Of a stretch of DNA of 60,357 nucleotides, positions 19,434-49,435 are shown piece after piece. Source of the stretch: Bacteroidales bacterium (GTDB taxonomy: Bacteria; Bacteroidota; Bacteroidia; Bacteroidales; UBA7960); assembly GCA_003559735.1 (NCBI GenBank), contig PWKN01000169.1:1-60357 (forward strand). Reading direction: 5' to 3'. The position numbers and the translations under genes are program-made. The stretch's first letter is position 1; each line of letters starts with the position of its first letter. Below the pieces are notes generated by a model. The model ran no database searches. It saw only the letters and a list, made by a program, of their open reading frames with translations, and had not been told where the DNA came from.

Positions 19434-21791
19434 TCATCTTTTGATAAACTGTCGTATGGCCAGAAAGTGGTCTGATACAACCATGAGCAAATAAATGCCA
19501 TTTTTCAGGGAGCTTATATCAATTGTATGATTGAAAGCGGTATTGTTTGTGCTGGTTGCAAGTGACGAAAGAACCGTCTGACCGGTAATGTTGTATATGA
19601 TAATTTCCGCATCTGTTGTTATTTCTTCTGTTTTGATGTTGAGGTATTGTTCTGCAGGGTTCGGATAGATCATTACGTTCTGTGATATTTGGCTGCTGGG
19701 CAGCATACCTGTGTCTTCACCAATGTCTGGGTATGCTTCAAAAGAATAGATGGAGAAACCCCATTGTGTTGCCCGTTTATTGCCCATCATTCTGACAAAC
19801 CTGGCTTCTGCCGGGTCAAAAATTATCCGGTCCCACCCGCCATTTCCCATTGGCTCGTGATATACAGTCGTCCATTCAAGTCCGTCATCCGATAACTGTA
19901 TCTCATAATCTTTGCCATAAGCCGTTTCCCATCGGATCATCACACGTTGTATTGTCTTTATTTCCTCCATCTCAACAGCAAGCCATTGGTTATCTGCATA
20001 GTCAGAGGACCACCGGGTAGAGAGATTTCCGTCAACGGCGTGGTGCACTACAGGGGCTGAACTATGCGATGAGGAAGCAGATGGTATCCTGTTGAGCAGC
20101 AGGTTTTCGGAGTCGGGATCATATACCGAAATGCGAAAAGGTGACACTGCGTATTTCCCCAAACTATCAGCAGCCTGGATCACAATCCTGTTAAATCCCT
20201 GTTTGTCTGGAAATACAATTACTTTCAGGTCGTTGTCACAGGAAATGAATGCTTCCGCCAAATCAGGGTTGTTGTTACTCATGACAGAAAAGTTCAGGAC
20301 CATGTTTTCTGCCGGTGTTTCAAACACTTCATGAAGGTTGATCACCGTAAAAGTGTCCGCTTCTTCTTTGATCATTTGGTTGAAGAAACCCGGAATGTCC
20401 TTTATTATTTTGGGCGGATAATGGAACCCCTCATACAGGTAGGGTACAATGTAATCGCGGTAATTGTTTGCCCTTGTGAAGTATGTTTCATAAGGCAGTT
20501 TTACAGATGGATCTGTCCAGTCTTTGCTTCCGTTAATTCTTATTACAGTGTGTCCAACTTCGAATGTGTGGAGGTTTTCAATAAAACGTTCACTGTATTC
20601 TTCGAGGTATGGAACGGCATCGTTCATTACATCCCTGGTAAAGGCCACCCGGTCGTATGCGGCTTCGCATGCTGAGGCAAAAAACAGGTAGGGGTCAAGG
20701 GCTTTAAGGAAATCCACTTCAATGCCGCCATGAAAATGATGATTGCCATGGTATATGTGTGTGCTGGCCACCTCTTCAGGGAATGCGTGAAGCATGGCCC
20801 GCTGGGCATGTTGATAAACATCGCCGCCAAAGTTAAAAACAAAATCATGGTATTTTAAATTGAATGCCAGCGAACGGTTGTTTCTGTTGTCCCAGCTTTC
20901 AAAATGCTCCGAATGATAGTACATGTACCTCTCGTCTATTTCGTTGAACAAGGGGGAGTTCAGGATTTTAATCTCTACGTCATCTCCGCCGATTCCTGTG
21001 ATGGTATTTCCAACGGCAAACTTGGGCCAGTGTTGTGGGGCGAAGCCGTATTCACCATATCCGTACGGGTCGTTGGGGTTGGGCCGGTTGTTATAATCGC
21101 CATATGCATTGGGGGGTTTGAATAAATTGTATCGAACCTGGCCGATTTCAAATTCATCCAGCAACGGCCCTAGGCCATGAAAATGATCATAATGCCAATG
21201 GCTTATGAACACGTAGTCAATTTTTTGCCTGCCGTTCTCGCCGACGGGCAGATGGGTTCTGAGAAATGGAACCGTATAATTTCTTGCCGCGCTTTCGGTC
21301 CCGGTATCAATCATGAGTGTCTCACCGTTTGGTAAAAAGATCAGCACAGCATCTCCATGCCCCACATTGAATGTAATGATTTTCATATCATGGATTACAC
21401 CTTCTCCGGCACCAATAACATCGAGTCCGACATCCAGTATACTTCCATTGTCAAAGGTAAACAGAAGCACATGATGGCCGCTTCCGAATTCAATGATCTC
21501 TTCTTTGGAAAAATGGATTTGAATGGCTGTTGGCATATGACTGTTTTGAAATACCTGTTGCCCATATTCCACCTGTTCACCATTTCTGGTCACAGAAACC
21601 AGCGTATGTTCGTTTTCATGAACGATAAAGTAGAGGTCGCGCGGTGTGTCTTTGTAAAATATATTGTTTCGCGGACTCAGCAATGGTCTTTCGGCGAGAC
21701 GATTCACTTTTTGATTGTTTGCATCCATGCCGGTTGCTGATAATATGCAAAAAAGCATAAACACAGCGGCTACAATGTTTTTTTTATCCAT
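19434..21791 (-). CDS. T9SS-secreted ComEC-like metallo-beta-lactamase-fold hydrolase with X2-like, Ig-like and CBM32 modules
   Basis: Signal peptide from ATG 21791; FNVGHGDAVLI, LMIDTG, SHWHYDHFHG (HxHxDH), NNRSL, FGGD, GNHHFHG; AVDGNLSTRWSS CBM32; YPNPA...GIYLL CTD. Confidence 0.8.
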   Translation of the reverse strand: MDKKNIVAAVFMLFCILSATGMDANNQKVNRLAERPLLSPRNNIFYKDTPRDLYFIVHENEHTLVSVTRNGEQVEYGQQVFQNSHMPTAIQIHFSKEEIIEFGSGHHVLLFTFDNGSILDVGLDVIGAGEGVIHDMKIITFNVGHGDAVLIFLPNGETLMIDTGTESAARNYTVPFLRTHLPVGENGRQKIDYVFISHWHYDHFHGLGPLLDEFEIGQVRYNLFKPPNAYGDYNNRPNPNDPYGYGEYGFAPQHWPKFAVGNTITGIGGDDVEIKILNSPLFNEIDERYMYYHSEHFESWDNRNNRSLAFNLKYHDFVFNFGGDVYQHAQRAMLHAFPEEVASTHIYHGNHHFHGGIEVDFLKALDPYLFFASACEAAYDRVAFTRDVMNDAVPYLEEYSERFIENLHTFEVGHTVIRINGSKDWTDPSVKLPYETYFTRANNYRDYIVPYLYEGFHYPPKIIKDIPGFFNQMIKEEADTFTVINLHEVFETPAENMVLNFSVMSNNNPDLAEAFISCDNDLKVIVFPDKQGFNRIVIQAADSLGKYAVSPFRISVYDPDSENLLLNRIPSASSSHSSAPVVHHAVDGNLSTRWSSDYADNQWLAVEMEEIKTIQRVMIRWETAYGKDYEIQLSDDGLEWTTVYHEPMGNGGWDRIIFDPAEARFVRMMGNKRATQWGFSIYSFEAYPDIGEDTGMLPSSQISQNVMIYPNPAEQYLNIKTEEITTDAEIIIYNITGQTVLSSLATSTNNTAFNHTIDISSLKNGIYLLMVVSDHFLAIRQFIKR

Positions 21792-21889
21792 ATAACAGAT
21801 CAATTGAAATGACTTATTACTATCTTCAGGCTAGGTGATGCTGGATGTAAAAACCTGGGAACACCTTATCAATCCCTCGTATCATTAAT

Positions 21890-22022: not shown

Positions 22023-23045
22023 TCAACGCAGTTGTTTCCGGGCACATTCAATAAAGGCAAGCATATTCGCGAGCGGCACATCACCTTCTACTGCATGGGC
22101 AGGTGAAAAGATATAGCTTCCGTTCTTCCCCTTTTCAAGGAGCGCTTCCGACTCGGCGCGGACCTCTCCGGGGGTGGCGTATGGTAATGTTTTCTGTGTT
22201 GACAGCCCACCATGAAAGCTCAGGGTGCCCCGGTACCTGTCCATGAGTGCAAACACATCCATTACCTCTGGCTGGAATGGATTAAAGCAATCAACACCTG
22301 TTTCCACCAGGTCGTCAAAGAGTTCCTTTACATCGCCGCATGAGTGTATCATTACAAACTTTCCGGCATCACGGACTGTCTGGTACATGTTTTTTAAATG
22401 TGGCCTGATCATATCACGCCACGCACCGGGTCCCATGATCAGCCCTTTTTGCTGTCCCCAGTCGTCTCCGAAGTAGACGGCATCGATGTCATATTCGAGG
22501 GCTTTCCGGATCTGGGAAATGTTATAGCTGGCAATCGCTTCCATTAAATCATAGACAAACCCGGGGTGCAGCATGAAATCGATCATCAGGTTTTCCATTC
22601 CGCGCAGGGTCCATGCCCTTTCAAACAGGCTGAACCCGATCCGGAAGACCCTGAACATGCCGGGGTGCCTTTCACAAAGTGGCTTGATGTTTTCAAAAAA
22701 TACCGGATGGCAGGGATCAGGGAATGTATAGTCCGACAAGTCGGGTTCAGACAAAATGATCTCTTTGACGTTACCGATGTCTTTGTCAACAGACCGGTCC
22801 CACACCACACCAAAAACATCCTTGTAAAGGTCGTTTCCCAGAGGTTCAAAAAACCCAATGTCGCTCCCCAGGCCAAGGATATGATTATACAGGACGTCGT
22901 CAAGTTCTGTACTCTGGTAGTGCTGGCATAACGTTTCCTTCGCTTCAACGGTGAATGAAAAGGACCATGGTGTATACGGGGGTTTTTTGCCTTCAAGGAC
23001 CATGCGCACTACATCGCGACGTGATGGATAACCAGGTGTATTCAT
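22023..23045 (-). CDS. URO-D/MtaA-CmuA fold corrinoid methyltransferase
   Basis: LFERAWTLRGMENLM, FGDDWGQQ, IHSCGD, NPFQPE, FHGGLSTQ, SPAH; URO-D-like TIM barrel next to a corrinoid protein. Confidence 0.8.
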   Translation of the reverse strand: MNTPGYPSRRDVVRMVLEGKKPPYTPWSFSFTVEAKETLCQHYQSTELDDVLYNHILGLGSDIGFFEPLGNDLYKDVFGVVWDRSVDKDIGNVKEIILSEPDLSDYTFPDPCHPVFFENIKPLCERHPGMFRVFRIGFSLFERAWTLRGMENLMIDFMLHPGFVYDLMEAIASYNISQIRKALEYDIDAVYFGDDWGQQKGLIMGPGAWRDMIRPHLKNMYQTVRDAGKFVMIHSCGDVKELFDDLVETGVDCFNPFQPEVMDVFALMDRYRGTLSFHGGLSTQKTLPYATPGEVRAESEALLEKGKNGSYIFSPAHAVEGDVPLANMLAFIECARKQLR

Positions 23046-23063
23046 AAGAGAGGATTTGTGATG

Positions 23064-23762
23064 TTATACCGAATGCTTGATGTTTCTGTAATTGCAGTTT
23101 ACATTGCTGCAGGCATTGCACACATATTTGTCGAACCGTACCTTTGTGCCGATCCCTATGATCCCGCTGACAGATTTTACGGGCTGCATTAGGGCAGATC
23201 CGGATATGCGAATACCGCAAAAACCTTCAGGGAACAATTTGAACAGCTTGTGTTGTTCGTCGACATTCCAGTTGCAGTATCCCGGACTGTAACGGTTGGT
23301 GACTTTCAATCCTTGTTTTTTCATGTCGCCGGCCAGGTGCTGATGAACGACATCCATTGCTGCGTCGGCCAGTAAAGAGCCAATGTAGTCGGTCACATAT
23401 GCCTCAACCTGCAATGATGCATTCATCTTTTCTTTGATACGGTTGCTTATGGTCTCACCCGCCGTGCACATAAAAAATGCAAACATCTCGGCATCCTGGA
23501 GAAACCGCATGATCTGTTTGCCTGGGTTGAACACGATGCCGTTGGCTGCTATTGTTTTTGCCGAAAGGTTGGGTTTGGCATGCCGGAATATACGGTATCC
23601 ACCTTTAATGTCATCATAAGTAGCAATCAGTTCGAGCTCATTCCTGATCAGTTCATCGAATGGATCGGGGATGTCGCCGGGATCGAATCCCATGACCCTG
23701 GCAACCATCTTTATGTCGATATTTATCTCGCCTGGACGTATGGTATATTGCATGCAGTTCAT
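23064..23762 (-). CDS. Stand-alone B12-dependent methionine synthase activation (reactivation) domain
   Basis: FMCTAG, RYSPGYCNW, MQPVKSVSGIIG and a C-terminal CxxCxxxxC cluster. Confidence 0.85.
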   Translation of the reverse strand: MNCMQYTIRPGEINIDIKMVARVMGFDPGDIPDPFDELIRNELELIATYDDIKGGYRIFRHAKPNLSAKTIAANGIVFNPGKQIMRFLQDAEMFAFFMCTAGETISNRIKEKMNASLQVEAYVTDYIGSLLADAAMDVVHQHLAGDMKKQGLKVTNRYSPGYCNWNVDEQHKLFKLFPEGFCGIRISGSALMQPVKSVSGIIGIGTKVRFDKYVCNACSNVNCNYRNIKHSV

Positions 23763-24673
23763 GTTGACCTTGTTTTTTGGAACAGTTCACGAAGCATTGC
23801 CGGGGAGGTGTTCAGGCCGAAAGTTACCAGTTCAGTAGGTCCGGCATAGGAGCTGATCTCCTGATAGTCAGTTGTTTCAAATACTGAATGTATGCCCATA
23901 ACGCGTCCGTCGGTCATATTTACAAATCCCTTGATCCGGTAACAGTCTTTTTGTAATGCGCTCACCATGGCAGTCAGTCCGTTATGGGTCATTTTATCGT
24001 GGGTGCGCAACACGCTTACTTTAACAGGAGGGCGTCCCGCAGATCGTTTTCCTTTAAAACGTGCTGCAGCCTTGTGCGGATGATCTGCCGTTTTTAGCAG
24101 CAGGGAAGGGTCAACACGGCAATGGGTCGTTTCTGTGATCTCAGCAAAGGGATTCAGGTCTGTTAACTGTTTGCGCAGCCGACCCAAATCACCCCCGAAA
24201 AGATCGGTTTTATTCAGGAGCAGATGATCTGCGACCATAACCTGGTGTCTGAATCCCGGTAGCATGTTCAGCCCTTTTTCAAAATGAACGGCATCAACAA
24301 CTGTTATGATGTGTGCATGTGTGATCTTCCCGCTGATGCCCTGATCCTGTAGTAGTTCCATTACATTCACAGGATCGGCAAGTCCGGAGGCCTCCAGAAA
24401 GATCAGCTCCGGATTGTGTTTACTAATAATGGTGTGCAGTGCATTCAAAAAAACGGACATCAGGCAGACACAAAAAACGGACCCGTTGTTGAGTTCCACC
24501 AGGTGGAAATCTTTGCTTGTTTGCAACAGTTCTTTTTCGTCGATGCCGGTGGGAGCGAACTCGTTCTGGATAATTGCCGTTCTTCTCTCCTGTGCACCCG
24601 TTGTGAGCACATGTTTCAGGAAAGAGGTTTTTCCGCTTCCCAGGGAGCCAATTACCAGTACCAGTGAGGTCAT
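23759..24673 (-). CDS. CobW/COG0523 G3E-family GTPase metallochaperone
   Basis: GSLGSGKT Walker A, IQNEF, NGSVFCVC, EASGLADP, VVDA, LNKTD, YRIKGFV. Confidence 0.9.
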   Translation of the reverse strand: MTSLVLVIGSLGSGKTSFLKHVLTTGAQERRTAIIQNEFAPTGIDEKELLQTSKDFHLVELNNGSVFCVCLMSVFLNALHTIISKHNPELIFLEASGLADPVNVMELLQDQGISGKITHAHIITVVDAVHFEKGLNMLPGFRHQVMVADHLLLNKTDLFGGDLGRLRKQLTDLNPFAEITETTHCRVDPSLLLKTADHPHKAAARFKGKRSAGRPPVKVSVLRTHDKMTHNGLTAMVSALQKDCYRIKGFVNMTDGRVMGIHSVFETTDYQEISSYAGPTELVTFGLNTSPAMLRELFQKTRST

Positions 24674-26031
24674 GATGATTTTTTTCGGAGTCTTTGGTTG
24701 ATGACCTCCCTGATCCTTTCTACCGGCGGAATTTGTGATTCAAACTCTATGTTCCCGTCTATGACAACAGAAGGGATCTTTTTTACACCCAGGCTTGCCA
24801 TCATCTGTATCCCTTCTTTCGCGGTAATGCGGTGTTCTTTGGCAACCACGCTGTTGCCGAATGGTTCAGCGGCTCTTGCCACGGCATCCACCATGTACTG
24901 GCAAGGTGCACATGATGAAGAGTCGAGGGTGATGATGTCGATGACAACCTGTGTATCGCTCCAGTGACTGTCCAGGTCAAGGGTATCTATTGCTGAGGTT
25001 GTTGCGGCTGATGCCCGGAGTTCTCCCTGGCGCATTTCGTCGTGGACAAGTTCTGCCACAGCCATGAGGTTTTCCGGTGGGGTGTCAAAAGGAAGATCAC
25101 ATCCCGGGGCCAGAATAAAACCTTGTTTGCCTCCTGTATCCATGCATTGCAGGGCTTCCCGCTGTGCTTCTTCCGGTGTCCCCATCAGCAGGGCTACTGT
25201 AAGCTTCATGTTGCCGCCAAAACTGAGTTTGTGATCCAGTGCCGTATCCCTGACAAAGTCAAGGGCGATGTTTTCATCAATAGAAATGTTGTCGGGTTTG
25301 CTCTGGCACATCAGTTCAATGTTCTGGGTGGCATTGCCACATACGAAAAATGAACCCAGTCCCTGCTGTGCGCGGATGTCGCTGAAAATTTCACTGACAT
25401 AAGGGGAAACAAAAGTTTCGAACGACATGGGGTCGATCTGGCTTGTCATGGGGTCAACCATGGCAATAATATCGCAGCCTGACTGTATGTATTCGCCGGC
25501 CATCATTTTGGCTGCCTTCGTGGAAAACCCCATCAGGTCGTGGACCATTGCGGGATCTTCGAACATCTTCATAAAAATATCCGTTCCCAGCAGGTGCAGT
25601 GAAAGGGTAAACGGACCGGTGATCAGTCCGTACAAGGCAATGCCGGGGTGTGCATCGCGCAGCTTCCTGGCCGCCTCTGTCACAACAGGGATTCGTCCAC
25701 GGCAGGTGCAGGGCACTTTCAGTTCTTCTACTCCCATTCCGTTTTGCAGCGGATGGGATATTACCGATGGCGGACTGTTATCGGACCATTTCAGCTGGCA
25801 ACCAAGGGCCTCAGCTTCAATTTGCAGGTCAAACACCACAGGAATGCCATCCGGGTTATACATGTTGATGGCCCTGGATACGCCGTTTACTATATGATCT
25901 GTTGATTTAAGGTATTGTTCGGCACCGACACCCAGCAGTTTTGCTGCATGCACGCCTACAAAGGGGACCCACGGGATCCGATCGACGGTTTCAAGGCGGA
26001 AGGCCTTTTTGATCAGGTCAATTTGCTGCAT
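24670..26031 (-). CDS. MtaA/CmuA-like methyltransferase fused to a C-terminal thioredoxin-like domain
   Basis: FDLQIEAEALG, TGPFTL, VDP, FVCGN, FGGN, ILAPGCDLP..TPPEN; C-terminal SCAPCQYM and GVKKIPSVVIDG. Confidence 0.85.
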   Translation of the reverse strand: MQQIDLIKKAFRLETVDRIPWVPFVGVHAAKLLGVGAEQYLKSTDHIVNGVSRAINMYNPDGIPVVFDLQIEAEALGCQLKWSDNSPPSVISHPLQNGMGVEELKVPCTCRGRIPVVTEAARKLRDAHPGIALYGLITGPFTLSLHLLGTDIFMKMFEDPAMVHDLMGFSTKAAKMMAGEYIQSGCDIIAMVDPMTSQIDPMSFETFVSPYVSEIFSDIRAQQGLGSFFVCGNATQNIELMCQSKPDNISIDENIALDFVRDTALDHKLSFGGNMKLTVALLMGTPEEAQREALQCMDTGGKQGFILAPGCDLPFDTPPENLMAVAELVHDEMRQGELRASAATTSAIDTLDLDSHWSDTQVVIDIITLDSSSCAPCQYMVDAVARAAEPFGNSVVAKEHRITAKEGIQMMASLGVKKIPSVVIDGNIEFESQIPPVERIREVINQRLRKKSS

Positions 26032-26701
26032 TGGTTGTATGTAGTTGGTTTAAATATTCGACCAATCCCTGGGGGTCCGGACTGTAAAGGTCGGCGCTGA
26101 TCCGGTCACAAAAGTCCTGCGTAACGGGTGCACCCCCGATGCAGACTTTTACACCGGGGTTTTTGTCTTTTAGTGTTTTGACGATCGTTTCCATGTTTAC
26201 CATGGTTGTAGTGAGCAGTGCGGATAATGCAACGACCGCTTCAGGATATTTTTCTGATTCTTCAAGGAAGCGATCGGCACCCACATCGGTTCCCAGGTTG
26301 ATCACCTCATAGCCATTGCCTTCAACCATCATTGCAACCAGGTTTTTCCCTATGTCGTGCAGGTCTCCCTGCACTGTACCGATTATGCAGGTACCTTTTC
26401 GTTTTACATCGCCACTGCTGAAAAAAGGTTTCAAATGAGCCATGGCAGCTCCCATTGCTTTTGCCGACATCAGCACCTGGGGAACAAAGATCTTGTTTTT
26501 ACGAAATTTGTCTCCAACCTGTTCCATCCCTTTAATGAGGGCCATGTTGAGGATATCACCTGCATTCAGTCCCTCGTTCAGTGCTTTCAGTGTAAGCTCA
26601 TCGGCCCCGTCTTTCCCCTTCATGTCAGGAGGATAAGGCGATTGATTGTTGATCTTTCCAAATTCAATGCAACAGGAAATCTGGTCCAGTAATTCTTTCA
26701 T
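26018..26701 (-). CDS. Corrinoid (cobalamin-binding) protein, MtbC/MttC-like
   Basis: Cap domain GMEQVGDKF...FVPQVLMSA; B12 motif GDLHDIGKNLV...LSALLTTT...IGGAP. Start probably ATG 26701. Confidence 0.93.
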   Translation of the reverse strand: MKELLDQISCCIEFGKINNQSPYPPDMKGKDGADELTLKALNEGLNAGDILNMALIKGMEQVGDKFRKNKIFVPQVLMSAKAMGAAMAHLKPFFSSGDVKRKGTCIIGTVQGDLHDIGKNLVAMMVEGNGYEVINLGTDVGADRFLEESEKYPEAVVALSALLTTTMVNMETIVKTLKDKNPGVKVCIGGAPVTQDFCDRISADLYSPDPQGLVEYLNQLHTTNAAN

Positions 26702-26722
26702 TGTTATCTTATTTGCATTCAA

Positions 26723-27970
26723 CTATAATTCTCTGACGGCTTCAACCATCGCTGCCACATTTTCTATGGGCACATTTGCCTGAATATTATGTACTGTGTT
26801 AAATACAAAGCCCCCGTTTTTATTAAATACCTCACATTGCCGTTTCACATGATCCCTGACCTGACCGGGATCGCCAAAAGGGAGTACTTTTTGTGTATCA
26901 GCCCCTCCGCCCCAAAAAACGAGGTGGTTGCCGTATTTTTCTTTCAGCGCAATGGGATCCATCCCTTTTGCGTTGATTTGCAGCGGGTTGATGATGTCAA
27001 AACCAGAATCGATAAAGGCCTGCATGAAAGGCTCCACTGCACCGCATGAATGTTTAAAGGTTTTCCAACCGGTATGCTGGTGGATCCAGTCATTCATCTT
27101 TTTATAGTAGGGGGCATACAGCTCGTTGTATGTTTCCAGACTACAAAAGGTTGAATCCTGTGTTCCGAAATCGGTACCGCAAATAAACACCACGTCCACA
27201 TTGCTGCCTGTTGCCTGATGAGCTTTTTCCAGGTTGCGCAATGCGATGTCTGTTTGTCTTTCAAATACCTGGTGCAGGTAGTCGGGTCGCATTAGCGCAG
27301 ACATATACCAGTCGGCCACCGCGCGTATCCCTTTGGGGTCATTCAGGTTCAAGCCGGGAACAAGGGCAATGTCGCCTATGGCCGTACCTCCAAAGTTGGC
27401 AACGACACCTCTCCCTTTTTTGGCGGCTGCTGAACTTTGTGCTGCCCAATAATTATAATCATTTTCAGTCCAGACACCAAACTCTTCCAGGTTGTCGTCG
27501 GGGTTCAGCCTGCTTTCGTCAACCGGATGTTGTCTTTCAATGGCATCAAAAAAGTAGCCCCTGACGGGCATTTTGGCACTGGGCGGTACCGACAGGTCCC
27601 CCCCGGGGTGAATCAGCAGGTTCCCTTCCTTGTCGGAAGATGTGTTGAATTGTTGGGGGACAAGGACATCCTGGCCCCAGAATGTTTTAAAGGGTTTCCA
27701 ATTCTCCTGTGGATGTCCGAACATATTGTTTGGCGGACCGATGCCAACGACGTCAACACCAAGTATTTCGATCAGTTCATCATCTATTTCTCCCAGCATC
27801 TGGTATGGCTCAATTACTTTTACGGACTTTTGCTCCAGTCCGTAGTGCCTTCTCAGTTTTTCGACTACAAGGACATGGATGCCCGTAACAGAGGTAGAAC
27901 CGTAGTCAACAACCACACGGTCTGTTTCTTCGTGTTGAATGGTTTTAATGAACAGCTCTTTTGAACGCAT
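26723..27970 (-). CDS. URO-D/MtaA-CmuA fold corrinoid methyltransferase
   Basis: GTDFGTQ, FKHSCGA, DIINPLQ, FWGGGADTQ, GGFVFNTVHNIQ. Confidence 0.8.
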   Translation of the reverse strand: MRSKELFIKTIQHEETDRVVVDYGSTSVTGIHVLVVEKLRRHYGLEQKSVKVIEPYQMLGEIDDELIEILGVDVVGIGPPNNMFGHPQENWKPFKTFWGQDVLVPQQFNTSSDKEGNLLIHPGGDLSVPPSAKMPVRGYFFDAIERQHPVDESRLNPDDNLEEFGVWTENDYNYWAAQSSAAAKKGRGVVANFGGTAIGDIALVPGLNLNDPKGIRAVADWYMSALMRPDYLHQVFERQTDIALRNLEKAHQATGSNVDVVFICGTDFGTQDSTFCSLETYNELYAPYYKKMNDWIHQHTGWKTFKHSCGAVEPFMQAFIDSGFDIINPLQINAKGMDPIALKEKYGNHLVFWGGGADTQKVLPFGDPGQVRDHVKRQCEVFNKNGGFVFNTVHNIQANVPIENVAAMVEAVREL

Positions 27971-27995
27971 AACCCGATTATTTCAAAACCCAAAA

Positions 27996-28027
27996 CAAAA
28001 GTACATGATTTTTTTTACCGGCGGTAA
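27996..28027 (-). promoter_or_regulatory. Internal promoter of the methyltransferase operon with adjacent palindrome
   Basis: -7 TACTTTTG (27996-28003, minus); TTACCG-G-CGGTAA at 28015-28027. Confidence 0.45.
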
Positions 28028-28095
28028 GAAAAACCTGCTGTTTGAATTACCATGAAATGGCCGCACATAAAGTCATACACAATACATTGCCAGGG

Positions 28096-29505
28096 TTATT
28101 TCCCTGGTTTGGATTTTATTCTGTACATGAAGTCATCACTTAGATGGTAAAAATAGATGAGTATGGCTGACAGCAGTGCACCTATAGCCGGAAAGAAGCT
28201 GAGCATCATCCGGATGCCGGTGATGGTAGTGGGTGTTTGTTCTATATTGGCCTGGAAACCGAAAATCGCCAGCAGCCATCCTGTAAGTGCACCCCCTAGT
28301 TTCCACCCAAACTTTTGCGACATGGACGACGAGGAAAAGATCAGTCCGGTTGCCCGCCGGCCGTTTTTTATTTCCGAGTAATCAGCAATGTCGCCAAACA
28401 TACTCCAGAGCAGAGGGAAAATGATGCCGGCCGAGATGCTGATAAAGAATTGGAATACAAATATGAGCCAAAGCTGGTCGGCTGTAAGCCAGAAGAATAT
28501 AACGCTAAGGATTGCGGCGGTCATCATTGCATAGAAAAATGTTTGTTTTTTGCCCAGCAGGCTGGAAACAGGTTTTGCCAGGGTGACACCGATCATATTG
28601 GCAGCCTGACCCGTGACAAGGTACAACGCACTGTATGTCATGGTGAGGTTCAGCATACCCGATGTAAATGCATTTTGTTCCAGGATATAGTACCTGAAAT
28701 AGTAGATGGTGGAGCCATCTCTGATCGAGTTGAAGATCAGGGTGGAAATCCCTGCCCCCAGCAAGATAAACCATGGTTTGTTTCCAATGAGGTCTTTCAG
28801 GTCGTCTTTAAGCTTGCTTTTTTTCTGTATGGGCTTGATCCGTTCCCTTGTCCAGCTGAAGTTAAACATAAAGAAGACCACGGCAAGGATACCGAAAACG
28901 GCAACGGATGCCTGCCATGCTCTTTGTGTTGCGTCGGCCCCTGTGAACACATTTTCAAACAAACCCACAAGTGGTTCGAAGCTCCCCAAAACCAGGAGGC
29001 TTCCAGCAAAGCCAAAGAGCATGCGGAATGTTGCCAGTGTGGTCCGTTCACCTGAGTCGGCGGTCATCACCCCCAGCAATGAAGCATAAGGGACATTAAT
29101 TGCGGTATACACCATCATCATAAGGGTATAGCTCAGGTAAGCATAAATGATCTTCCCTTGCATATCCAGGTCTGGTGTGGTAAAGGTAAGCACCCCTGCA
29201 ATGGCGAAAGGGCCTGCCACCCAGAGGATATAGGGTCTGAACTTGCCCCAGCGCGAATTGGTACGGTCGGCTATGATCCCCATAATGGTATCGTTGGAAG
29301 CATCCCATATGCGTGTAACAAGGAACATGGTGCCTACTGCGGCTGCCGGGATCCCGAACACATCTGTGTAGAAGAAGAGCAGGTACATGGAGAAAAGCTT
29401 CCAGAACATAGAGGCTGCAGCGTCACCAAATCCGAAGCCTATCCTCTCTCTGATGGGCAGCTTATGGCTGACAGAAGCTGCAGGGGTGGTTACAGGGGTT
29501 TTCAT
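28096..29505 (-). CDS. GPH-family (MelB/UidB-like) cation:oligosaccharide symporter, probable manno-oligosaccharide importer
   Basis: GFGFGDAA, RIWDASND, DRTNSRWGKFRPY, YTAINVPY, DIADYSE..NGRRATG; directly downstream of GH26. Confidence 0.9.
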   Translation of the reverse strand: MKTPVTTPAASVSHKLPIRERIGFGFGDAAASMFWKLFSMYLLFFYTDVFGIPAAAVGTMFLVTRIWDASNDTIMGIIADRTNSRWGKFRPYILWVAGPFAIAGVLTFTTPDLDMQGKIIYAYLSYTLMMMVYTAINVPYASLLGVMTADSGERTTLATFRMLFGFAGSLLVLGSFEPLVGLFENVFTGADATQRAWQASVAVFGILAVVFFMFNFSWTRERIKPIQKKSKLKDDLKDLIGNKPWFILLGAGISTLIFNSIRDGSTIYYFRYYILEQNAFTSGMLNLTMTYSALYLVTGQAANMIGVTLAKPVSSLLGKKQTFFYAMMTAAILSVIFFWLTADQLWLIFVFQFFISISAGIIFPLLWSMFGDIADYSEIKNGRRATGLIFSSSSMSQKFGWKLGGALTGWLLAIFGFQANIEQTPTTITGIRMMLSFFPAIGALLSAILIYFYHLSDDFMYRIKSKPGK

Positions 29506-29599
29506 ATGTAAATGATTATATTATTATCTTTTTTTGATCATATGAACCGGGGTCTGTTTGTTTGCCGAAGGCTGCCGGTAAGGTTATTTGTTGTTGTTA

Positions 29600-30787
29600 T
29601 TATTTTTGATACATCGGTGGAAGGTCATCTTCAAAAAGGATCAGTTCATCTTCACGGAACCTGACAAAGTCGGCTGCGGAATCATGCCCTGGGTAGGGTG
29701 CGAAAAAATGGGTTTTCCAGGCGTTTCGCCACACCAGCAGGTATGCTATCTTACTTGCTTGCGGATCTTCCTTTATGGGCCGGAGGAGTCTTTTGGTAAA
29801 CCAGTCGTTTTCCGAAACGCAGTCATTGCCTGTCTCGGTCAGTGCAGGTATTTTGTTTCGTTCTTCCGCTATTTCGACCAGTGTCCTGAGACTAAGCAGG
29901 AACAGGCTGTCTTGCACCTTTCTTGGCACACTGTCCAGATGGCTTTGCGATCTGCCTACATCCCAGTAATTGTCGAGGCCTATGATATCTACATATTCGT
30001 CGCCCGGATAGGCGTAAAGGAAGTCATTATGACAGTGTGCTGTTGCCATGCGGCTTCTGTCGGGGGAGATGGCGTACAACAAGTGGTTCACACTCAGTGT
30101 ATCTCTCAGGTAATGCACGGTGTATTGCCAGAGGGACACAAATTCCTCTTCCGTTGTATTGTGGTTGCCCCACCAGAACCAGTCGCCGTTGTGCTCGTGC
30201 CATGGCCTGAATATAACAGGGATTGGCCTTCCATTGTTGTCGCGAAGGGCGGAAAAGAAGTCGCCGACCATATCGAGCCTTTCCCTGAATTCTTCGTGCA
30301 TTTCTCCACCCGGCAGCATCAGTGCCGGAACAGGGTCCCGGCTCCAGACCTGTTTGTCGGGACCGTTGTGCATCTCGTGCCAGCTTATGGTGATCACGCC
30401 CCCCCTGGTATGACCTTCTTTGATGAACCTGATCATCTGGCTGAAAGGGATACTGTCGATATTGTTATCGAATGCTATGTGGCCAATATCCCAGCCATAT
30501 AGGGCCGGATGTGAACCAGAAACATCGCGGACATCAGAAAAGCTGTTCATGTTGTCACGCCTTCCCACACCGTAAGCCAGCGCATCCTGGTGTCCGAACA
30601 GGACGTGGGTTTCAGCGACATTCTTCAGGTTTCTGTATAACGCCCTGGTCTCTGCAGTTGCGTTGGGGTCGACAAGCTGATGGCCGCAGGAGTCTGAAGG
30701 GACTGCCTGTTGGCTGCACGACAGAATAATGTGCGCCAGTCCTGTAAAAAGTACTGCTGCCAGCAGGGGAGGTATCAATTTCTTCAT
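29600..30787 (-). CDS. GH26 beta-mannanase, lipoprotein
   Basis: Start ATG 30787 with lipobox ILSC; LFGHQD, TISWH, FRPWHEHNGDWFWWG (acid/base), YPGDEYVDIIGLDNY, ALTETG (nucleophile), LVWRN. Confidence 0.93.
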   Translation of the reverse strand: MKKLIPPLLAAVLFTGLAHIILSCSQQAVPSDSCGHQLVDPNATAETRALYRNLKNVAETHVLFGHQDALAYGVGRRDNMNSFSDVRDVSGSHPALYGWDIGHIAFDNNIDSIPFSQMIRFIKEGHTRGGVITISWHEMHNGPDKQVWSRDPVPALMLPGGEMHEEFRERLDMVGDFFSALRDNNGRPIPVIFRPWHEHNGDWFWWGNHNTTEEEFVSLWQYTVHYLRDTLSVNHLLYAISPDRSRMATAHCHNDFLYAYPGDEYVDIIGLDNYWDVGRSQSHLDSVPRKVQDSLFLLSLRTLVEIAEERNKIPALTETGNDCVSENDWFTKRLLRPIKEDPQASKIAYLLVWRNAWKTHFFAPYPGHDSAADFVRFREDELILFEDDLPPMYQK

Positions 30788-30845
30788 ATCTTCACTGGAG
30801 TTTATGTTATACCATACGGTCAAATTCAATACCCAGGTTTGGAAG

Positions 30846-47938: not shown

Positions 47939-49435
47939 ATGGTATTACTCGGATATGATATTGGCAGTTCATCTGTCAAAGCGAGCCTGGTGGATAGTTC
48001 ATCGGGACAGTGTATTGCTTCCTCCTTTTATCCGAAAAAGGAGATGGAGATATCTTCTCCGCAGCCCGGTTGGGCTGAACAACATCCTAATGTATGGTGG
48101 GATAGCATCGTGGCTGTGACAAGCGAGCTGATGCAGCAGCAGAAAATTGACAAAGAATCTGTTGGTGCCATTGGGTTGTCGTACCAGATGCACGGACTGG
48201 TCATTACTGACCGGGACGGCAAGCCGCTCAGACCTTCTATTATCTGGTGCGACAGTCGCTCTGTGGCTTATGGGGAAAAGGCTTTCAGGGAGATCGGTGA
48301 AACGCAATGCCTGTCGGCTGTGCTCAATTCGCCCGGTAACTTTACCGCCTCAAAACTGGCATGGGTAAAAGAGAACGAGCCTGCATTGTATTAAAAAATT
48401 GACAGGGTGATGCTGCCTGGTGACTATATTGCCTTGAAGCTGACTGGAGAAGCGCTGACAACACCCTCAGGATTGTCTGAAGGGATATTCTGGGACTTTC
48501 AAAAGCATGGTTTGGCTGAATTGATACTGGACTACTATGGTTTTGACCGGGATCTCTTCCCTGGGGTGGTTCCCAATTTTTCCGTACAGGGTAATTTAAC
48601 AAAACAGGCTGCAGGTGAACTTGGTCTCAAGGCTGGTATTCCCCTTGCATACAGGGCAGGGGATCAGCCCAACAACGCATTTTCGCTGAATGTGCTCAAT
48701 CCCGGGGAAATTGCGGCAAATGCAGGAACCTCCGGAGTGGTTTACGGGGTTAGTGACCAGGTGACGTACGACCCGCAGTCAAGGGTGAATACCTTTGCCC
48801 ATGTTAATCATACCAGCGAAGATGCACGCCTTGGCGTGCTGTTGTGTGTAAATGGTACCGGGATCCTCAATTCGTGGTTGAAGAAAAATGTGGTTTCAGC
48901 AGATTGGGATTATGAAGAAATGAACCGTCAGAGCGCATCGGTCCCTGCAGGATCTGACGGCCTCATCGTACTGCCTTTCGGCAATGGGGCAGAACGGATG
49001 ATCGGGAACAAAAATCCCGGCTGTATCATTGAGCGGCTGGATTTTAACAGGCACAACAATGCCTGTCTTGTCAGGGCAGCCCACGAAGGGATTGCATTTG
49101 CTTTTGCGTATGGGATCGATATCATGGAGACTACCGGTATCAGGGCATCCGTGATCCGGGCAGGCAACGCCAACATGTTCCTGAGTCCGGTTTTCAGAGA
49201 AACCCTTGCCGCACTGACCAATGCCACCATAGAGCTTTATAATACCGATGGTTCGCAGGGAGCTGCCAGGGCTGCCGGAGTGGGTGCCGGAATATTCGCG
49301 TCGGCAAGTGACGCTTTCGGCGGACTAAAGATCGTAGAAACCGTCAGTCCGGATAAAACATTGCAGAAGCCGGTCAGTGAGGCGTTTAATAACTGGAAAA
49401 ACATCCTCCGCAAACAGTTGCAGCCGGCCAAATAA
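47939..49435 (+). pseudogene. xylB: Xylulokinase (FGGY family) interrupted by an in-frame TAA at 48392-48394
   Basis: GYDIGSSSVK, YQMHGLV, IIWCDSR, KLAWVKENEPALY*KIDRVMLPGDY, AGDQ, AGTSG, PFGNGAER; both halves are in the same frame. Confidence 0.85.

What the first reader, a model, noticed from the sequence alone, without database searches (positions are those of the whole stretch)
22023..27970. Six-gene cobalamin-dependent methyl-transfer operon inside a beta-mannan PUL: candidate anaerobic sugar O-demethylation system
Seen: three URO-D/MtaA-fold proteins, a DxHxxG corrinoid protein, a CobW GTPase and a stand-alone MetH reactivation domain. They are tightly coupled (ATGA overlaps at 23759-62 and 24670-73, a further overlap at 26018-31) and lie directly downstream of GH26 and a GPH sugar symporter, with no clear terminator between. 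Known: methyltransferase + corrinoid protein systems cleave methyl ethers in acetogens and methanogens, and aerobic marine Bacteroidota demethylate 6-O-methyl-galactose with a P450. Inference: this is an oxygen-independent counterpart that removes methyl groups from imported O-methyl sugars (O-methyl-mannose, or 4-O-methylglucuronate given the nearby xylose genes). I recall related uncharacterised corrinoid/methyltransferase genes near gut Bacteroides PULs, so the novelty is likely functional rather than first occurrence.
Basis: partly seen in the sequence, partly recalled or inferred. Interest (0 to 1): 0.88.

Follow-up and report, generated by a model that had tools for sequence, protein, structure and literature searches.

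The report
Vitamin B12 methyl-transfer operon in glycan locus
A salt-lake Bacteroidota genome carries a vitamin-B12-dependent methyl-transfer operon inside a plant-glycan digestion locus, and comparison with other genomes suggests it strips methyl groups from imported sugars without oxygen, a reaction for which no enzyme is yet known.

Summary
Six tightly coupled minus-strand genes (22023-27970) encode:
- two divergent URO-D-fold proteins (g1, g6) with an invariant His-Cys-His triad;
- a DxHxxG corrinoid protein (g2);
- a full-length MtaA-like protein fused to a CxxC thioredoxin-like domain (g3);
- a CobW GTPase (g4);
- a stand-alone MetH activation domain (g5).

The six-gene set is not a conserved unit. 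The conserved unit is the four-gene core g2-g3-g4-g5, and the URO-D genes around it vary.

The g1 family depends on this corrinoid protein family:
- 32 of 34 g1-positive genomes carry the corrinoid protein, against 61 of 301 genomes overall.
- The two genes are often adjacent.
- The predicted complex scored 0.81, against 0.00 for the best control.

The g1 family also sits beside sugar genes. Of 45 loci, 37 have a sugar transporter or glycoside hydrolase within 6 kb, against 8.5% of random places. Single records show g1 fused to GH3 or to an MFS sugar transporter.

In other genomes the same corrinoid protein sits with a homocysteine methyltransferase, or with a pterin methyltransferase plus MTHFR. 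This makes it a split-MetH-like hub.

The best reading is O2-independent demethylation of an imported O-methyl sugar (about 0.55). The identity of the sugar and the methyl acceptor in this genome are unknown, and the link to mannan is not conserved. Six literature searches found no description of such a system. It is a new variant of a known kind, and interest is high.

The parts
26723..27970 (-). g1: 415-aa divergent URO-D-fold protein, the candidate substrate:corrinoid methyltransferase (MT1). It has a putative Zn triad H307/C309/H394 and no signal peptide.
   Evidence: Pfam URO-D, C-terminal half only. No PDB sequence match at E 0.01. The model has pLDDT 89.3, and its nearest folds are URO-D and MtaA 4AY7 at TM 0.56-0.68. 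H307, C309 and H394 are invariant in 35 aligned relatives. Predicted complex with g2: 0.81 against 0.00 for the best control. Orthologues lie beside sugar transporters and GHs.
26018..26722 (-). g2: corrinoid protein (B12-binding_2 cap plus Rossmann B12-binding domain, DxHxxG). The likely true start is the ATG at 26701.
   Evidence: It is the only B12-binding domain found in the assembled genome. Orthologues at 54-73% identity occur in 57 loci of other genomes.
24670..26031 (-). g3: full-length MtaA-like URO-D domain fused to a C-terminal CxxC thioredoxin-like domain. It is the candidate methyl-corrinoid:acceptor methyltransferase (MT2), with the acceptor unknown.
   Evidence: URO-D at 205 bits plus Thioredoxin_3. 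Best PDB match is MtaA 4AY7, E 1.8e-25. Both Cys aligned with 4AY7's HxC motif and its later Cys are kept, and the His is Phe. FVCG...PGCD is conserved in 19 of 19 orthologues aligned. It is never found in one locus with the pterin MT plus MTHFR (0 of 15).
23759..24673 (-). g4: CobW/COG0523-type G3E GTPase, a presumed metallochaperone.
   Evidence: cobW at 124.7 bits plus CobW_C. It accompanies g3 in 13 of 15 g3 loci. The sequence shows CVCL where I recall CxCC for the family.
23064..23762 (-). g5: stand-alone MetH-type activation (SAM-binding reactivation) domain.
   Evidence: Met_synt_B12 at 29 bits against a cut-off of 25. It is the only such domain in the genome. Orthologues lie near the corrinoid protein in 33 of 57 loci.
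22023..23045 (-). g6: 340-aa URO-D-fold protein of the same His-Cys-His class as g1, probably a second MT1. Relatives of 340-360 aa often lie next to the corrinoid protein.
   Evidence: URO-D at 79 bits. No PDB sequence match. Motifs HSCG...SPAH. Orthologues lie adjacent to the corrinoid protein in L117 (62%) and L128 (49%).
28096..29505 (-). GPH (MFS_2) glycoside/cation symporter directly upstream. It is the likely importer for the operon's substrate in this genome.
   Evidence: MFS_2 at 310.8 bits. The GPH-g1 adjacency is repeated in L015, at 72% identity for each protein.
29600..30829 (-). GH26 glycoside hydrolase, upstream of GPH.
   Evidence: Glyco_hydro_26 at 153.8 bits. Not found near g1 in 0 of 80 other loci.

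Best explanation
The locus encodes a cytoplasmic, oxygen-independent, corrinoid-dependent methyl-transfer system that serves glycan catabolism.

Proposed mechanism:
1. A methylated sugar or small glycoside released by the PUL enzymes is imported. In this genome the importer is the GPH symporter. In most other genomes it is a XylE-like MFS transporter.
2. g1, and probably g6 for a second substrate, binds the ether oxygen at a His-Cys-His zinc site. It presents the methyl group to the Co(I) form of the corrinoid protein g2. This yields the free sugar and CH3-Co(III).
3. g3 (MtaA-like, two Cys, fused thioredoxin-like domain) passes the methyl group to an acceptor. In this genome the acceptor is unknown, and a thiol is the most likely. 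In related genomes the same corrinoid protein hands the methyl group to homocysteine through a stand-alone Hcy methyltransferase, or to tetrahydrofolate through a pterin methyltransferase followed by MTHFR.
4. g5 rescues oxidised Co(II) by SAM-dependent reductive methylation, as the activation domain of MetH does.
5. g4 is a GTPase metallochaperone, presumably loading zinc.

Shown here: the domain content, the conserved motifs, the genomic co-occurrence and neighbourhoods, and a supportive predicted g1-g2 complex.

Inferred only: the direction of transfer, a sugar methyl ether as donor, the role of g3 as MT2, and the roles of g4 and of the thioredoxin-like domain.
For: 1. Parts list of a corrinoid methyltransferase system.

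2. The g1 family is tied to this corrinoid protein family.
- In an even sample of 301 genomes of the order, 34 have a g1-family hit and 61 have a corrinoid-protein hit.
- 32 of the 34 are corrinoid-protein-positive. The two exceptions are 79% and 89% complete.
- 5 of 5 further genomes with g1 carry a corrinoid-protein orthologue at 60-66% identity elsewhere in the genome.
- g1 or a g1-like gene is adjacent to the corrinoid protein in G275, G070, G096, G117, G123 and G198.

3. Predicted g1-g2 complex.
- ipSAE 0.81, against 0.00 for the best of 3 controls.
- The mark was reached by 58 of 80 solved complexes and 2 of 110 mismatched pairs.
- The three runs share at least 84% of their contacts, and the partner's pLDDT is at least 85.
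- The interface includes g1 H394 and residues 270-277, and the corrinoid protein's DxHxxG, SxL and GG loops.

4. Sugar link of g1.
- Among the best 80 of 547 genome loci, an MFS Sugar_tr homologue lies near g1 in 38 of 80 and a GH2 in 35 of 80.
- Among the 45 loci with at least 6 kb on both sides, 37 have a sugar transporter or GH within 6 kb.
- The same measure gives 8 of 38 for loci centred on the corrinoid protein and 8.5% for 5000 random places in this genome.
- At least five different arrangements occur: g1-Sugar_tr-GH2; Sugar_tr-GH120-like-g1-GH29-hexokinase; GH94-SSF-GH63-like-beta-helix/g1; SusCD-GH51-like-Sugar_tr-g1; and mutarotase-GH88-like-g1.
- The partner transporter is most like the E. 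coli xylose:H+ symporter XylE, E 1e-100.
- Three longer proteins fuse a g1-like domain to GH3, to a Sugar_tr transporter or to a beta-helix.
- The genome's fourth URO-D paralogue lies in a second PUL, between a GH2 and GH95-like plus SusCD genes.

5. Hub architecture. Next to the corrinoid protein in 57 loci: activation domain in 33, stand-alone Hcy methyltransferase in 18, pterin MT plus MTHFR in 12, g3 in 15, of which 13 also have CobW.

6. Chemistry (established knowledge, recalled). Co(I) plus a zinc Lewis acid cleaves aryl methyl ethers in acetogen O-demethylases, and even methanol in MtaBC. An alkoxide leaving group of a sugar lies between these two in difficulty.
Against: - No biochemical or expression evidence exists. 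No RNA run holds the sequence.
- The substrate is inferred from neighbours only.
- 8 of the 45 full-flank g1 loci have no recognised transporter or GH nearby. Some of these lie among housekeeping genes.
- SusCD is near g1 in only 3 of 45 loci.
- Several exemplar GHs used for the count were picked from g1 neighbourhoods. Many loci are one syntenic block of related genomes. The enrichment is therefore overstated.
- Only 2-3 of the 80 g1 loci hold corrinoid genes nearby.
- The window has neither a pterin methyltransferase nor a stand-alone Hcy methyltransferase. The methyl acceptor is therefore open.
- g3 lacks the His aligned with the HxC His of MtaA 4AY7.
- g3 coexists with an Hcy methyltransferase in many genomes, so its role as MT2 is a guess.
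- The fusion proteins are single records and could be gene-calling read-through.
- A His-Cys-His site has not been described for any characterised corrinoid methyltransferase that I could find.
Confidence: 0.55

Rival explanations
1. The same machinery acts on methoxylated aromatic compounds, such as lignin- or ferulate-derived phenolics or methoxylated phenolic glycosides imported by glycoside transporters. This would be the Bacteroidota version of the acetogen O-demethylases.
For: - Characterised URO-D-fold MT1 enzymes that cleave ethers act on aryl methyl ethers (Kountz & Balskus, sections read).
- Relatives have the acetogen-like set of corrinoid protein, pterin MT and MTHFR.
- Hemicellulose PULs meet feruloylated and lignin-bound material.
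- Some loci near the corrinoid protein carry a His-x-Asp class of URO-D protein, the pattern that paper gives for O-methyltransferases.
Against: - g1 and g6 have His-Cys-His, not the carboxylate-substituted pattern.
- The partners of g1 are a XylE-like monosaccharide symporter, mutarotase, hexokinase and exo-glycosidases.
- Fusions are to GH3 and to a sugar transporter.
- No aromatic-ring catabolic genes were seen in the neighbourhoods annotated.
Confidence: 0.15
2. The cluster is mainly a methionine-synthesis or methyl-scavenging hub (a split MetH). Its URO-D proteins would draw methyl groups from small non-sugar donors such as methanol, methylamines or S-methyl compounds, and its place in the PUL would be incidental.
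For: - The same corrinoid protein sits beside a stand-alone Hcy methyltransferase in 18 of 57 loci, and beside both Hcy MT and pterin MT plus MTHFR in L144 and L152.
- The best NCBIfam hit of g2 is the MtgC model, below its cut-off.
- In G161 the g1 orthologue is directly followed by an Hcy MT.
Against: - Full-length MetH is present as well in all 5 genomes checked, and as a contig-cut fragment in this genome.
- The neighbourhoods of g1 are dominated by sugar genes.
- MT1 enzymes for methanol and methylamines belong to other folds (MtaB, MttB; recalled).
- This rival differs from the best explanation only in the donor. A sugar donor feeding methionine is compatible with both.
Confidence: 0.15
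3. [quoted passage not shown]
For: - It has three URO-D-family genes plus a corrinoid protein, like mlp clusters.
- g3 is the closest of the three to MtaA.
- There are weak, sub-threshold NCBIfam hits to a HUIPC thioredoxin-like (seleno)protein and to a CobW-related selenoprotein model.
Against: - The paper states that the His-Cys-Cys triad is almost invariant in type 1 Mlps. None of the three proteins here has it: g1 and g6 have His-Cys-His, and g3 has Phe-Cys-Cys.
- There is no Ram/RACE activase in the cluster.
- The hosts are Bacteroidota, not the mainly Firmicutes carriers described.
- The neighbours are sugar genes.
Confidence: 0.05
4. g1 and g6 are not methyltransferases. They would be cofactor-independent decarboxylases or other TIM-barrel enzymes acting on sugar acids, and only g2-g5 would form the corrinoid module.
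For: - URO-D itself is a decarboxylase.
- g1 and g6 match the family weakly, and g1 only over its C-terminal half.
- Most g1 orthologues are not next to corrinoid genes.
Against: - 32 of 34 g1-positive genomes carry the corrinoid protein, against 61 of 301 overall.
- g1 and the corrinoid protein are repeatedly adjacent.
- The predicted complex places H394 against the cobalamin-binding face.
- The His, Cys and His are invariant at the positions aligned with the HxC motif and the later Cys of MtaA-like relatives.
Confidence: 0.04

Closest known systems
Corrinoid-dependent aryl methyl ether O-demethylases of acetogens, Desulfitobacterium and methoxydotrophic archaea (Odm, Vdm, Mtv, Mto systems)
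   Same: The logic is the same: a URO-D-fold MT1 cleaves a methyl ether with Co(I), a small corrinoid protein carries the methyl group, and a second methyltransferase unloads it. Related Bacteroidota genomes even have the pterin MT plus MTHFR next to the same corrinoid protein.
   Different: - The metal triad is His-Cys-His, not the carboxylate-substituted pattern (pattern as given in PMC10418091).
- The activator is a MetH-type SAM domain rather than an ATP-dependent RACE/RamA enzyme.
- The window has an MtaA-like/thioredoxin fusion and CobW in place of the pterin MT.
- The MT1 genes are dispersed in PULs beside sugar transporters, and the likely substrate is an aliphatic (sugar) ether.
MtgBCDE split methionine synthase / glycine betaine demethylase of marine Proteobacteria (PMC12478193), and the split MetH of Phaeobacter (Price et al. 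2018; seen in the search listing only)
   Same: One stand-alone corrinoid protein is a hub for several substrate-specific MT1s, a pterin MT and a homocysteine MT. In Bacteroidota the same three acceptor-side parts are found around g2 orthologues.
   Different: - The MT1s here are URO-D fold, not the MttB/MtgB fold.
- The donors are probably sugars rather than quaternary amines.
- The hosts are anaerobic or facultative glycan degraders.
- This window lacks both the pterin MT and the Hcy MT.
Type 1 mlp gene clusters (Kountz & Balskus, PMC10418091)
   Same: They have several URO-D-family paralogues plus a corrinoid protein and lack a pterin methyltransferase. They are widespread and uncharacterised.
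   Different: The His-Cys-Cys triad and the Ram/RACE activase are both absent here. The context is sugar genes rather than sulfur or selenium genes.
MtaABC methanol:coenzyme M methyltransferase of Methanosarcina (MtaA structure 4AY7)
   Same: g3 aligns with MtaA over 269 residues at E 1.8e-25 and keeps both aligned Cys. g2 resembles MtaC-type corrinoid proteins.
   Different: - Coenzyme M is not known in this group (recalled).
- The His aligned with MtaA's HxC His is replaced by Phe.
- A thioredoxin-like domain is fused.
- No MtaB was seen among the cluster's six proteins.
Cytochrome P450 6-O-methyl-D-galactose demethylase of aerobic marine bacteria (Reisky et al. 2018; abstracts of follow-up papers seen)
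   Same: The physiological role would be the same: removing a methyl ether that blocks sugar catabolism, with the gene encoded in a glycan-utilisation locus.
   Different: The chemistry is unrelated. The P450 route is an O2-dependent oxidation that yields formaldehyde, while this system would perform a nucleophilic methyl transfer to Co(I). The two share no homology.

Membership tests
Corrinoid-dependent methyltransferase system (MT1 / corrinoid protein / MT2 / activator) | Small corrinoid protein with a cap domain, a Rossmann B12-binding domain and DxHxxG | tested here: met
   Pfam B12-binding_2 plus B12-binding. TIGR02370 at 181 bits, below the cut-off of 215. DxHxxG, SxL and GG are invariant in 28 of 28 aligned sequences.
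Corrinoid-dependent methyltransferase system (MT1 / corrinoid protein / MT2 / activator) | A substrate-specific MT1 that binds the corrinoid protein | tested here: inconclusive
   g1 has the URO-D/MtaA fold. It co-occurs with the corrinoid protein in 32 of 34 genomes. The model supports binding: 0.81 against 0.00 for the best control. Activity was not tested.
Corrinoid-dependent methyltransferase system (MT1 / corrinoid protein / MT2 / activator) | An MT2 of a known type (pterin-binding MeTr-like, or MtaA-type with a His-Cys-Cys zinc site) | tested here: not met
   The genome has no stand-alone pterin MT. g3 is MtaA-like but has Phe at the His position. Relatives do have a pterin MT or an Hcy MT.
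Corrinoid-dependent methyltransferase system (MT1 / corrinoid protein / MT2 / activator) | A reductive activator | tested here: met
   A stand-alone Met_synt_B12 activation domain, 29 bits against a cut-off of 25. It is the MetH type, not the RamA/RACE type.
Type 1 mlp gene cluster | His-Cys-Cys zinc triad in the Mlp proteins | tested here: not met
   g1 and g6 have His-Cys-His, and g3 has Phe-Cys-Cys. The criterion is from PMC10418091.
Type 1 mlp gene cluster | Ram/RACE corrinoid reductive activase in the cluster | tested here: not met
   None of the six proteins has such a domain.
Type 1 mlp gene cluster | Mlp2 and Mlp3 clade membership in a phylogeny or sequence-similarity network (SSN) | not tested
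   No reference Mlp sequences could be obtained. The paper's supplements are closed.
Aryl methyl ether O-demethylase MT1 (OdmB/VdmB type) | URO-D fold with one or both Cys ligands replaced by a carboxylate or a non-ligand | tested here: not met
   g1 and g6 keep the Cys and have His at the third position. A separate His-x-Asp class exists in other loci, not in the window.
Split MetH / MtgBCDE-type hub | Stand-alone homocysteine S-methyltransferase (PF02574) and stand-alone pterin methyltransferase (PF00809) working with the stand-alone corrinoid protein | tested here: not met
   In this genome the only PF02574 hit is the contig-cut MetH N-terminus, and the only PF00809 hit is one full-length stand-alone match at 257.6 bits, which I take to be FolP-like (a judgement, not a tool result). 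Relatives meet the feature: Hcy MT in 18 of 57 loci and pterin MT in 12 of 57.
COG0523 / CobW G3E GTPase | P-loop cobW domain plus CobW_C, and a CxCC metal motif | tested here: inconclusive
   Both domains are over their cut-offs. The sequence reads CVCL where CxCC is expected. The motif is recalled, not taken from a call.
Cobalamin-dependent methionine synthase MetH | Hcy, pterin, cap, B12 and activation domains in a single chain | tested here: not met
   Here the cap plus B12 domains and the activation domain lie on separate small proteins, and the cluster has no Hcy or pterin domain.

The most novel reading that the evidence does not exclude
The His-Cys-His URO-D proteins (g1, g6 and their many paralogues) would be a previously unrecognised, widespread family of cobalamin-dependent sugar methyl-ether demethylases. 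Anaerobic Bacteroidota, and apparently Planctomycetota, would scatter them through their polysaccharide utilisation loci, one per methylated sugar. All would feed one shared split-MetH-like corrinoid hub. In hubs of the g3/CobW type, as in this window, the methyl group would go neither to folate nor to homocysteine. The MtaA-thioredoxin fusion would discharge it onto a thiol or sulfide (giving methanethiol) or onto another new acceptor. This would fill the acknowledged gap of how methylated sugars are demethylated without oxygen.
Probability: 0.45. Interest if true: 0.9.

Novelty: new variant of a known kind. Interest (0 to 1): 0.8.

Why it matters
**The open problem.** Methyl ethers on sugars block glycolytic processing. 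Examples are 6-O-methyl-galactose in porphyran, 2-O-methyl-xylose and 2-O-methyl-fucose in rhamnogalacturonan II, 3-O-methyl sugars of algae, mosses and cyanobacteria, and 4-O-methyl-glucuronate in xylan. The only known enzymatic removal needs O2 (a P450). A 2025 paper on gut porphyran degradation states that demethylation in anaerobes has not been elucidated and probably occurs by a mechanism still to be discovered (PMC12316285; passages read).

**What it would mean if true:**
- It supplies that mechanism.
- It links vitamin B12 supply to glycan digestion in sediments, soda lakes, peat and possibly guts.
- It adds an aliphatic-ether substrate class and a new metal-site class to corrinoid methyltransferases.
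- It identifies a new route from glycan methyl groups into methionine, folate C1 units or volatile methyl-sulfur compounds.

**Testability.** The hypothesis can be tested directly, because cultured carriers exist: Puteibacter, Mariniphaga and Sunxiuqinia for g1, and Saccharicrinis, Labilibaculum, Carboxylicivirga and Marinifilum for g3.

Tried and rejected
**"This operon is the cell's only methionine synthase."** The genome showed a single B12-binding domain and no MetE. I rejected the idea because a MetH N-terminus runs off the end of contig C68, and MTHFR lies at the end of C78. The missing MetH is therefore an assembly break. Five of five other carriers have a full MetH.

**"The six genes are a conserved set."** Rejected. 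None of the 80 g1 loci or the 57 loci centred on the corrinoid protein shows the same six-gene order.

**"The system belongs with beta-mannan."** Rejected as a general rule. Near g1, GH26 occurs in 0 of 80 loci, GH130 in 1 and GPH in 1.

**The 79 of 80 hits of g6.** These were cross-matches to the g1 orthologues, resolved by place.

**Expression.** No RNA holder was listed for 22023-30829. Twelve DNA runs, from salt, soda or lake-water metagenomes, hold it or part of it.

**Riboswitch.** No Rfam family reaches its gathering score anywhere in the window.

**Sequence and feature searches that gave no functional name:**
- PDB sequence searches for g1 and g6 gave no match at E 0.01.
- The ESM Atlas gave only "URO-D family" clusters.
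- The PDB search for the GH2 partner gave one close but uncharacterised entry, 8U01.

**Literature.** Six searches found no paper linking corrinoid proteins to O-methyl sugars or PULs. This holds only for the library searched.

**Supplements.** Supplements of PMC10418091 (its list of 367 organisms and non-type-1 clusters) and of PMC12478193 could not be seen. They might list Bacteroidota clusters of this kind.

**Not attempted:**
- A phylogeny with reference OdmB, VdmB, MtvB, MtoB and Mlp sequences, because no such sequences could be brought in under the rules.

**Xylose link.** The adjacency of xylose genes to the corrinoid protein (L098, L100) is seen in only 2 of 57 loci, so I did not build on it.

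Full report
**The observation**

Pfam and NCBIfam confirm the domains.

| Gene | Coordinates | Length | Content |
|---|---|---|---|
| g1 | 26723-27970 | 415 aa | Matches URO-D only over its C-terminal half |
| g2 | 26018-26722 | 234 aa | Corrinoid protein: B12-binding_2 cap plus B12-binding domain |
| g3 | 24670-26031 | 453 aa | Full-length URO-D/MtaA-like domain (205 bits) fused to a thioredoxin-like domain with a CAPC motif |
| g4 | 23759-24673 | 304 aa | CobW-type GTPase with CobW_C |
| g5 | 23064-23762 | 232 aa | Stand-alone MetH activation domain |
| g6 | 22023-23045 | 340 aa | Another weak URO-D match |

- The DxHxxG motif of g2 (GDLHDIGK) and its SxL and GG motifs are invariant in 28 aligned orthologues.
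- The two ATGA overlaps and the 14-nt overlap were read directly.
- g2 probably starts at the ATG at 26701, because its orthologues are about 222 aa long.
- GH26 and a GPH symporter lie directly upstream. SusC/SusD, GH5, GH130, a hybrid two-component regulator and T9SS-tagged enzymes fill the rest of the window.
- No minus-strand terminator-like site lies between GPH and g1.
- The 125-nt spacer contains a TACTTTTG resembling the Bacteroidota -7 promoter box as I recall it. Co-transcription with GPH therefore remains open.
- No Rfam family, and so no riboswitch, is detected in the window.

**Two kinds of URO-D proteins**

These were all 54 that are not close g1 orthologues, plus every sixth of the 85 close g1 orthologues of at least 300 aa. 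The alignment shows distinct metal-site classes.

- **g1, g6 and their relatives:** H-x-C-G, and a His where MtaA-like relatives have their second Cys. H307, C309 and H394 of g1 are invariant across 35 orthologues and paralogues, together with D267.
- **g3:** aligns with MtaA (PDB 4AY7, E 1.8e-25). It keeps both aligned Cys but has Phe in place of the His. FVCG...PGCD is present in all 19 orthologues aligned.
- **Other loci, not the window:** a canonical His-Cys-Cys class, and a His-x-Asp class.

Kountz & Balskus (PMC10418091; results and discussion read) state that His-Cys-Cys marks S-/Se-methyltransferases of this superfamily, and that O-methyltransferases replace Cys by carboxylates or non-ligands. 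The His-Cys-His class fits neither description.

g1 and g6 have no PDB match by sequence. A confident model of g1 (pLDDT 89.3) is nearest to URO-D and MtaA at TM 0.56-0.68 and 12-15% identity.

**Where g1 lives elsewhere**

g1 belongs to a large family without a functional name:
- In the word-index search, 8000 of 8000 scored candidates passed E<=1e-5, and the best 120 are 64-100% identical.
- In the exhaustive search of representatives, there are 673 clusters at E<=1e-30 and 7806 at E<=1e-3.

A scan of one genome per species found 547 loci, of which the best 80 were kept. Only 2-3 of these 80 contain the corrinoid genes (g2 in 2, g3 in 3, g4 in 2, g5 in 3). By contrast, 38 contain a homologue of the window's MFS sugar transporter and 35 a GH2.

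Annotation of the neighbours shows several independent arrangements:
- g1-Sugar_tr-GH2 (949 aa), often with GH95, GH27, a sulfatase and a second, 387-aa His-Cys-His paralogue;
- Sugar_tr-GH120-like-g1-GH29 fucosidase-hexokinase in Prolixibacteraceae and Mariniphaga;
- Sugar_tr-GH94-SSF-GH63-like-beta-helix, divergent from g1;
- SusC/D-GH51-like-Sugar_tr-g1-GH51-like;
- DUF4432-Sugar_tr...mutarotase-GH88-like-g1 in the closest relative (L006, 72% identity);
- GPH-g1 in the window and in L015.

Counts of sugar genes near g1:
- Of the 45 loci with at least 6 kb on each side, 37 have a sugar transporter or a GH within 6 kb. SusCD is near in only 3.
- The same count gives 8 of 38 for loci centred on the corrinoid protein.
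- It gives 8.5% for 5000 random places in the window's own genome.

Caveats on these counts:
- Part of the exemplar set was taken from g1 neighbourhoods.
- Many loci are one syntenic block of related genomes.
- Eight loci have no such neighbour; four of them (L014, L037, L051, L074) lie beside a signal peptidase II gene and other genes I did not annotate.

Further links to sugars:
- The usual partner transporter is most similar to the E. coli xylose:H+ symporter (E 1e-100).
- Three longer proteins fuse a g1-like domain to GH3 (P0271), to a Sugar_tr transporter (P0272) or to a beta-helix domain (P0273). Each is a single cluster, and read-through cannot be excluded.
- The genome's fourth URO-D paralogue (contig C239) lies in a second PUL, between a GH2 and GH95-like plus SusC/SusD genes.

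**g1 needs the corrinoid protein**

- In an even sample of 301 genomes of the order, 34 have a g1-family hit at E<=1e-30 and 61 have a hit to g2 at E<=1e-40.
- 32 of the 34 are g2-positive. The exceptions are genomes of 79% and 89% completeness.
- A few of the 61 g2 hits are MetH-like long ORFs, so the background rate is if anything lower.
- Five of five further g1 carriers have a g2 orthologue (60-66% identity) elsewhere in the genome, besides a full MetH.
- g1 or a g1-like gene is adjacent to the corrinoid protein in at least six sampled genomes.
- The predicted g1-g2 complex scored ipSAE 0.81, against 0.00 for the best of three controls. That mark was reached by 58 of 80 solved complexes and 2 of 110 mismatched pairs. 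The runs agree in at least 84% of contacts, and the partner's pLDDT is at least 85.
- The interface joins g1 H394 and residues 270-277 to the DxHxxG, SxL and GG loops of g2, that is, the cobalamin face. This supports binding but does not show it.

**The corrinoid protein is a hub**

I examined 57 loci centred on g2 orthologues: 52 from the order sample and 5 from g1 carriers.

| Found next to the corrinoid protein | Loci (of 57) |
|---|---|
| Activation domain | 33 |
| Stand-alone homocysteine S-methyltransferase (PF02574, about 300 aa) | 18 |
| Pterin-binding methyltransferase followed by an MTHFR | 12 |
| g3 | 15 (13 of these with CobW) |

- g3 and the pterin MT plus MTHFR never share a locus.
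- Four of four g3-type genomes tested have no stand-alone pterin MT, only the MetH domain.
- The Hcy methyltransferase occurs with either type. In G161 it directly follows the g1 orthologue.
- The family is therefore a split-MetH-like hub whose donor side is served by URO-D proteins.
- The closest described analogue is MtgBCDE of marine Proteobacteria. There one corrinoid protein serves glycine betaine demethylation, a bidirectional pterin methyltransferase and a homocysteine methyltransferase (PMC12478193; abstract and discussion read).

The window's version (g2-g3-g4-g5 with no Hcy MT and no pterin MT) recurs in six other loci: L105, L106, L115, L123, L128 and L096. In this genome and in G004 no stand-alone Hcy MT was found either. 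The acceptor here is therefore unknown.

**Mechanism proposed**

1. A methylated sugar is imported.
2. g1, or g6, activates the ether oxygen at zinc and transfers the methyl group to Co(I)-g2.
3. g3 unloads CH3-Co(III) onto an acceptor.
4. g5 repairs Co(II) with SAM.
5. g4 serves as metallochaperone.

Steps 1 to 3 and the roles of g4 and the thioredoxin-like domain are inferred. The chemistry is plausible on established knowledge (recalled, not from a call). Corrinoid enzymes cleave aryl methyl ethers and, with a zinc Lewis acid, even methanol. A sugar alkoxide is an intermediate leaving group.

**Which sugar**

This cannot be said. The partners point to a neutral monosaccharide rather than a uronate: a XylE-like transporter, mutarotase, hexokinase, and fucosidase, xylosidase-like and galactosidase enzymes. 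The mannan context is not conserved. O-methyl-xylose, -fucose, -galactose and -glucose are all open.

**Rivals**

- **Methoxylated aromatics or phenolic glycosides (0.15):** favoured by precedent, disfavoured by the neighbours and the metal site.
- **A methionine-synthesis hub with non-sugar donors (0.15):** favoured by the Hcy MT neighbours. However, MetH is present in all five other carriers checked, and in this genome as a fragment cut by a contig end.
- **An mlp-type S/Se system (0.05):** fails two defining features.
- **A non-methyltransferase role for g1 (0.04):** contradicted by the co-occurrence.

**Literature**

Six searches found nothing that links corrinoid proteins with O-methyl sugars or PULs. 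A 2025 paper states that anaerobic demethylation of 6-O-methyl-galactose has not been elucidated (PMC12316285; passages read). Supplements were closed.

**Habitat and expression**

DNA runs that hold the stretch are labelled salt-lake, soda-lake and lake-water metagenomes.

**Verdict**

The operon is real. It is a new variant of the corrinoid methyltransferase systems, and its sugar-demethylase reading is well supported by context but unproven. It addresses an acknowledged gap, and cultured relatives make it directly testable.

Noticed in passing
window 47939-49435 (+): The xylulokinase (FGGY) gene next to xylose isomerase is full length by similarity (60% to the L098 orthologue over residues 1-489). 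It carries an in-frame TAA at 48392-48394. This is a nonsense mutation, a pseudogene or an assembly error.
   Followed up: partly
G000 contig C239:1-12000 (L157): A fourth URO-D paralogue (414 aa, His-Cys-His class, 39% identical to the C-terminal half of g1) lies in a second PUL, in the order GH2 - URO-D - unknown 529 aa - GH95/GH65-like - SusC - SusD.
   Followed up: partly
G000 contig C68:1-1428 (L158) and C78:2100-2693: MetH is cut after its homocysteine domain by a contig end, and MTHFR also lies at a contig end. The apparent absence of MetH from this 96%-complete MAG is therefore an assembly artefact.
   Followed up: yes
window 31152-35930 (+): A 1592-aa secreted protein combines a CotH kinase-like domain with lamin-tail, PA14, Fn3-associated and T9SS sorting domains. 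It is divergent from GH26. Its function in a PUL is unclear.
   Followed up: no
window 19434-21803 (-): A metallo-beta-lactamase-fold domain is fused to an F5/8 type C (galactose-binding-like) domain and a T9SS tail. It lies directly downstream of g6 after a 219-nt gap, between the operon and SusC.
   Followed up: no
L059:17850-18761, L030, L109, L120, L122, L143, L145, L146, L097: In these loci a stand-alone homocysteine S-methyltransferase is inserted between g3 and CobW. In them g3 is about 540-550 aa long, with a second, weakly similar thioredoxin-like repeat.
   Followed up: partly
L080:17912-19075, also L049, L052, L038, L073: A 387-aa His-Cys-His URO-D subfamily (IYHGCGN...FQSDHSVS) lies beside a GH95 in L080; there the GH95 follows a GH27 and the URO-D gene is followed by an SDR and a dienelactone-hydrolase-like esterase, about 7 kb from the g1 orthologue. 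This suggests several methylated sugars handled in one locus.
   Followed up: partly
L096:15138-19032 (Puteibacter caeruleilacunae): Downstream of the g2-g3-g4-g5 core lie a sulfatase, a creatininase-family protein, a His-x-Asp-class URO-D protein and a GDSL/SASA carbohydrate esterase.
   Followed up: no
L098:3466-10222 and L100: In two Bacteroidales genomes the core (corrinoid protein - pterin MT - MTHFR - activation domain) lies beside xylose genes. In L098 xylulokinase and xylose isomerase follow directly. In L100 only xylulokinase was seen, about 5 kb away. The window has both genes 20 kb away.
   Followed up: partly
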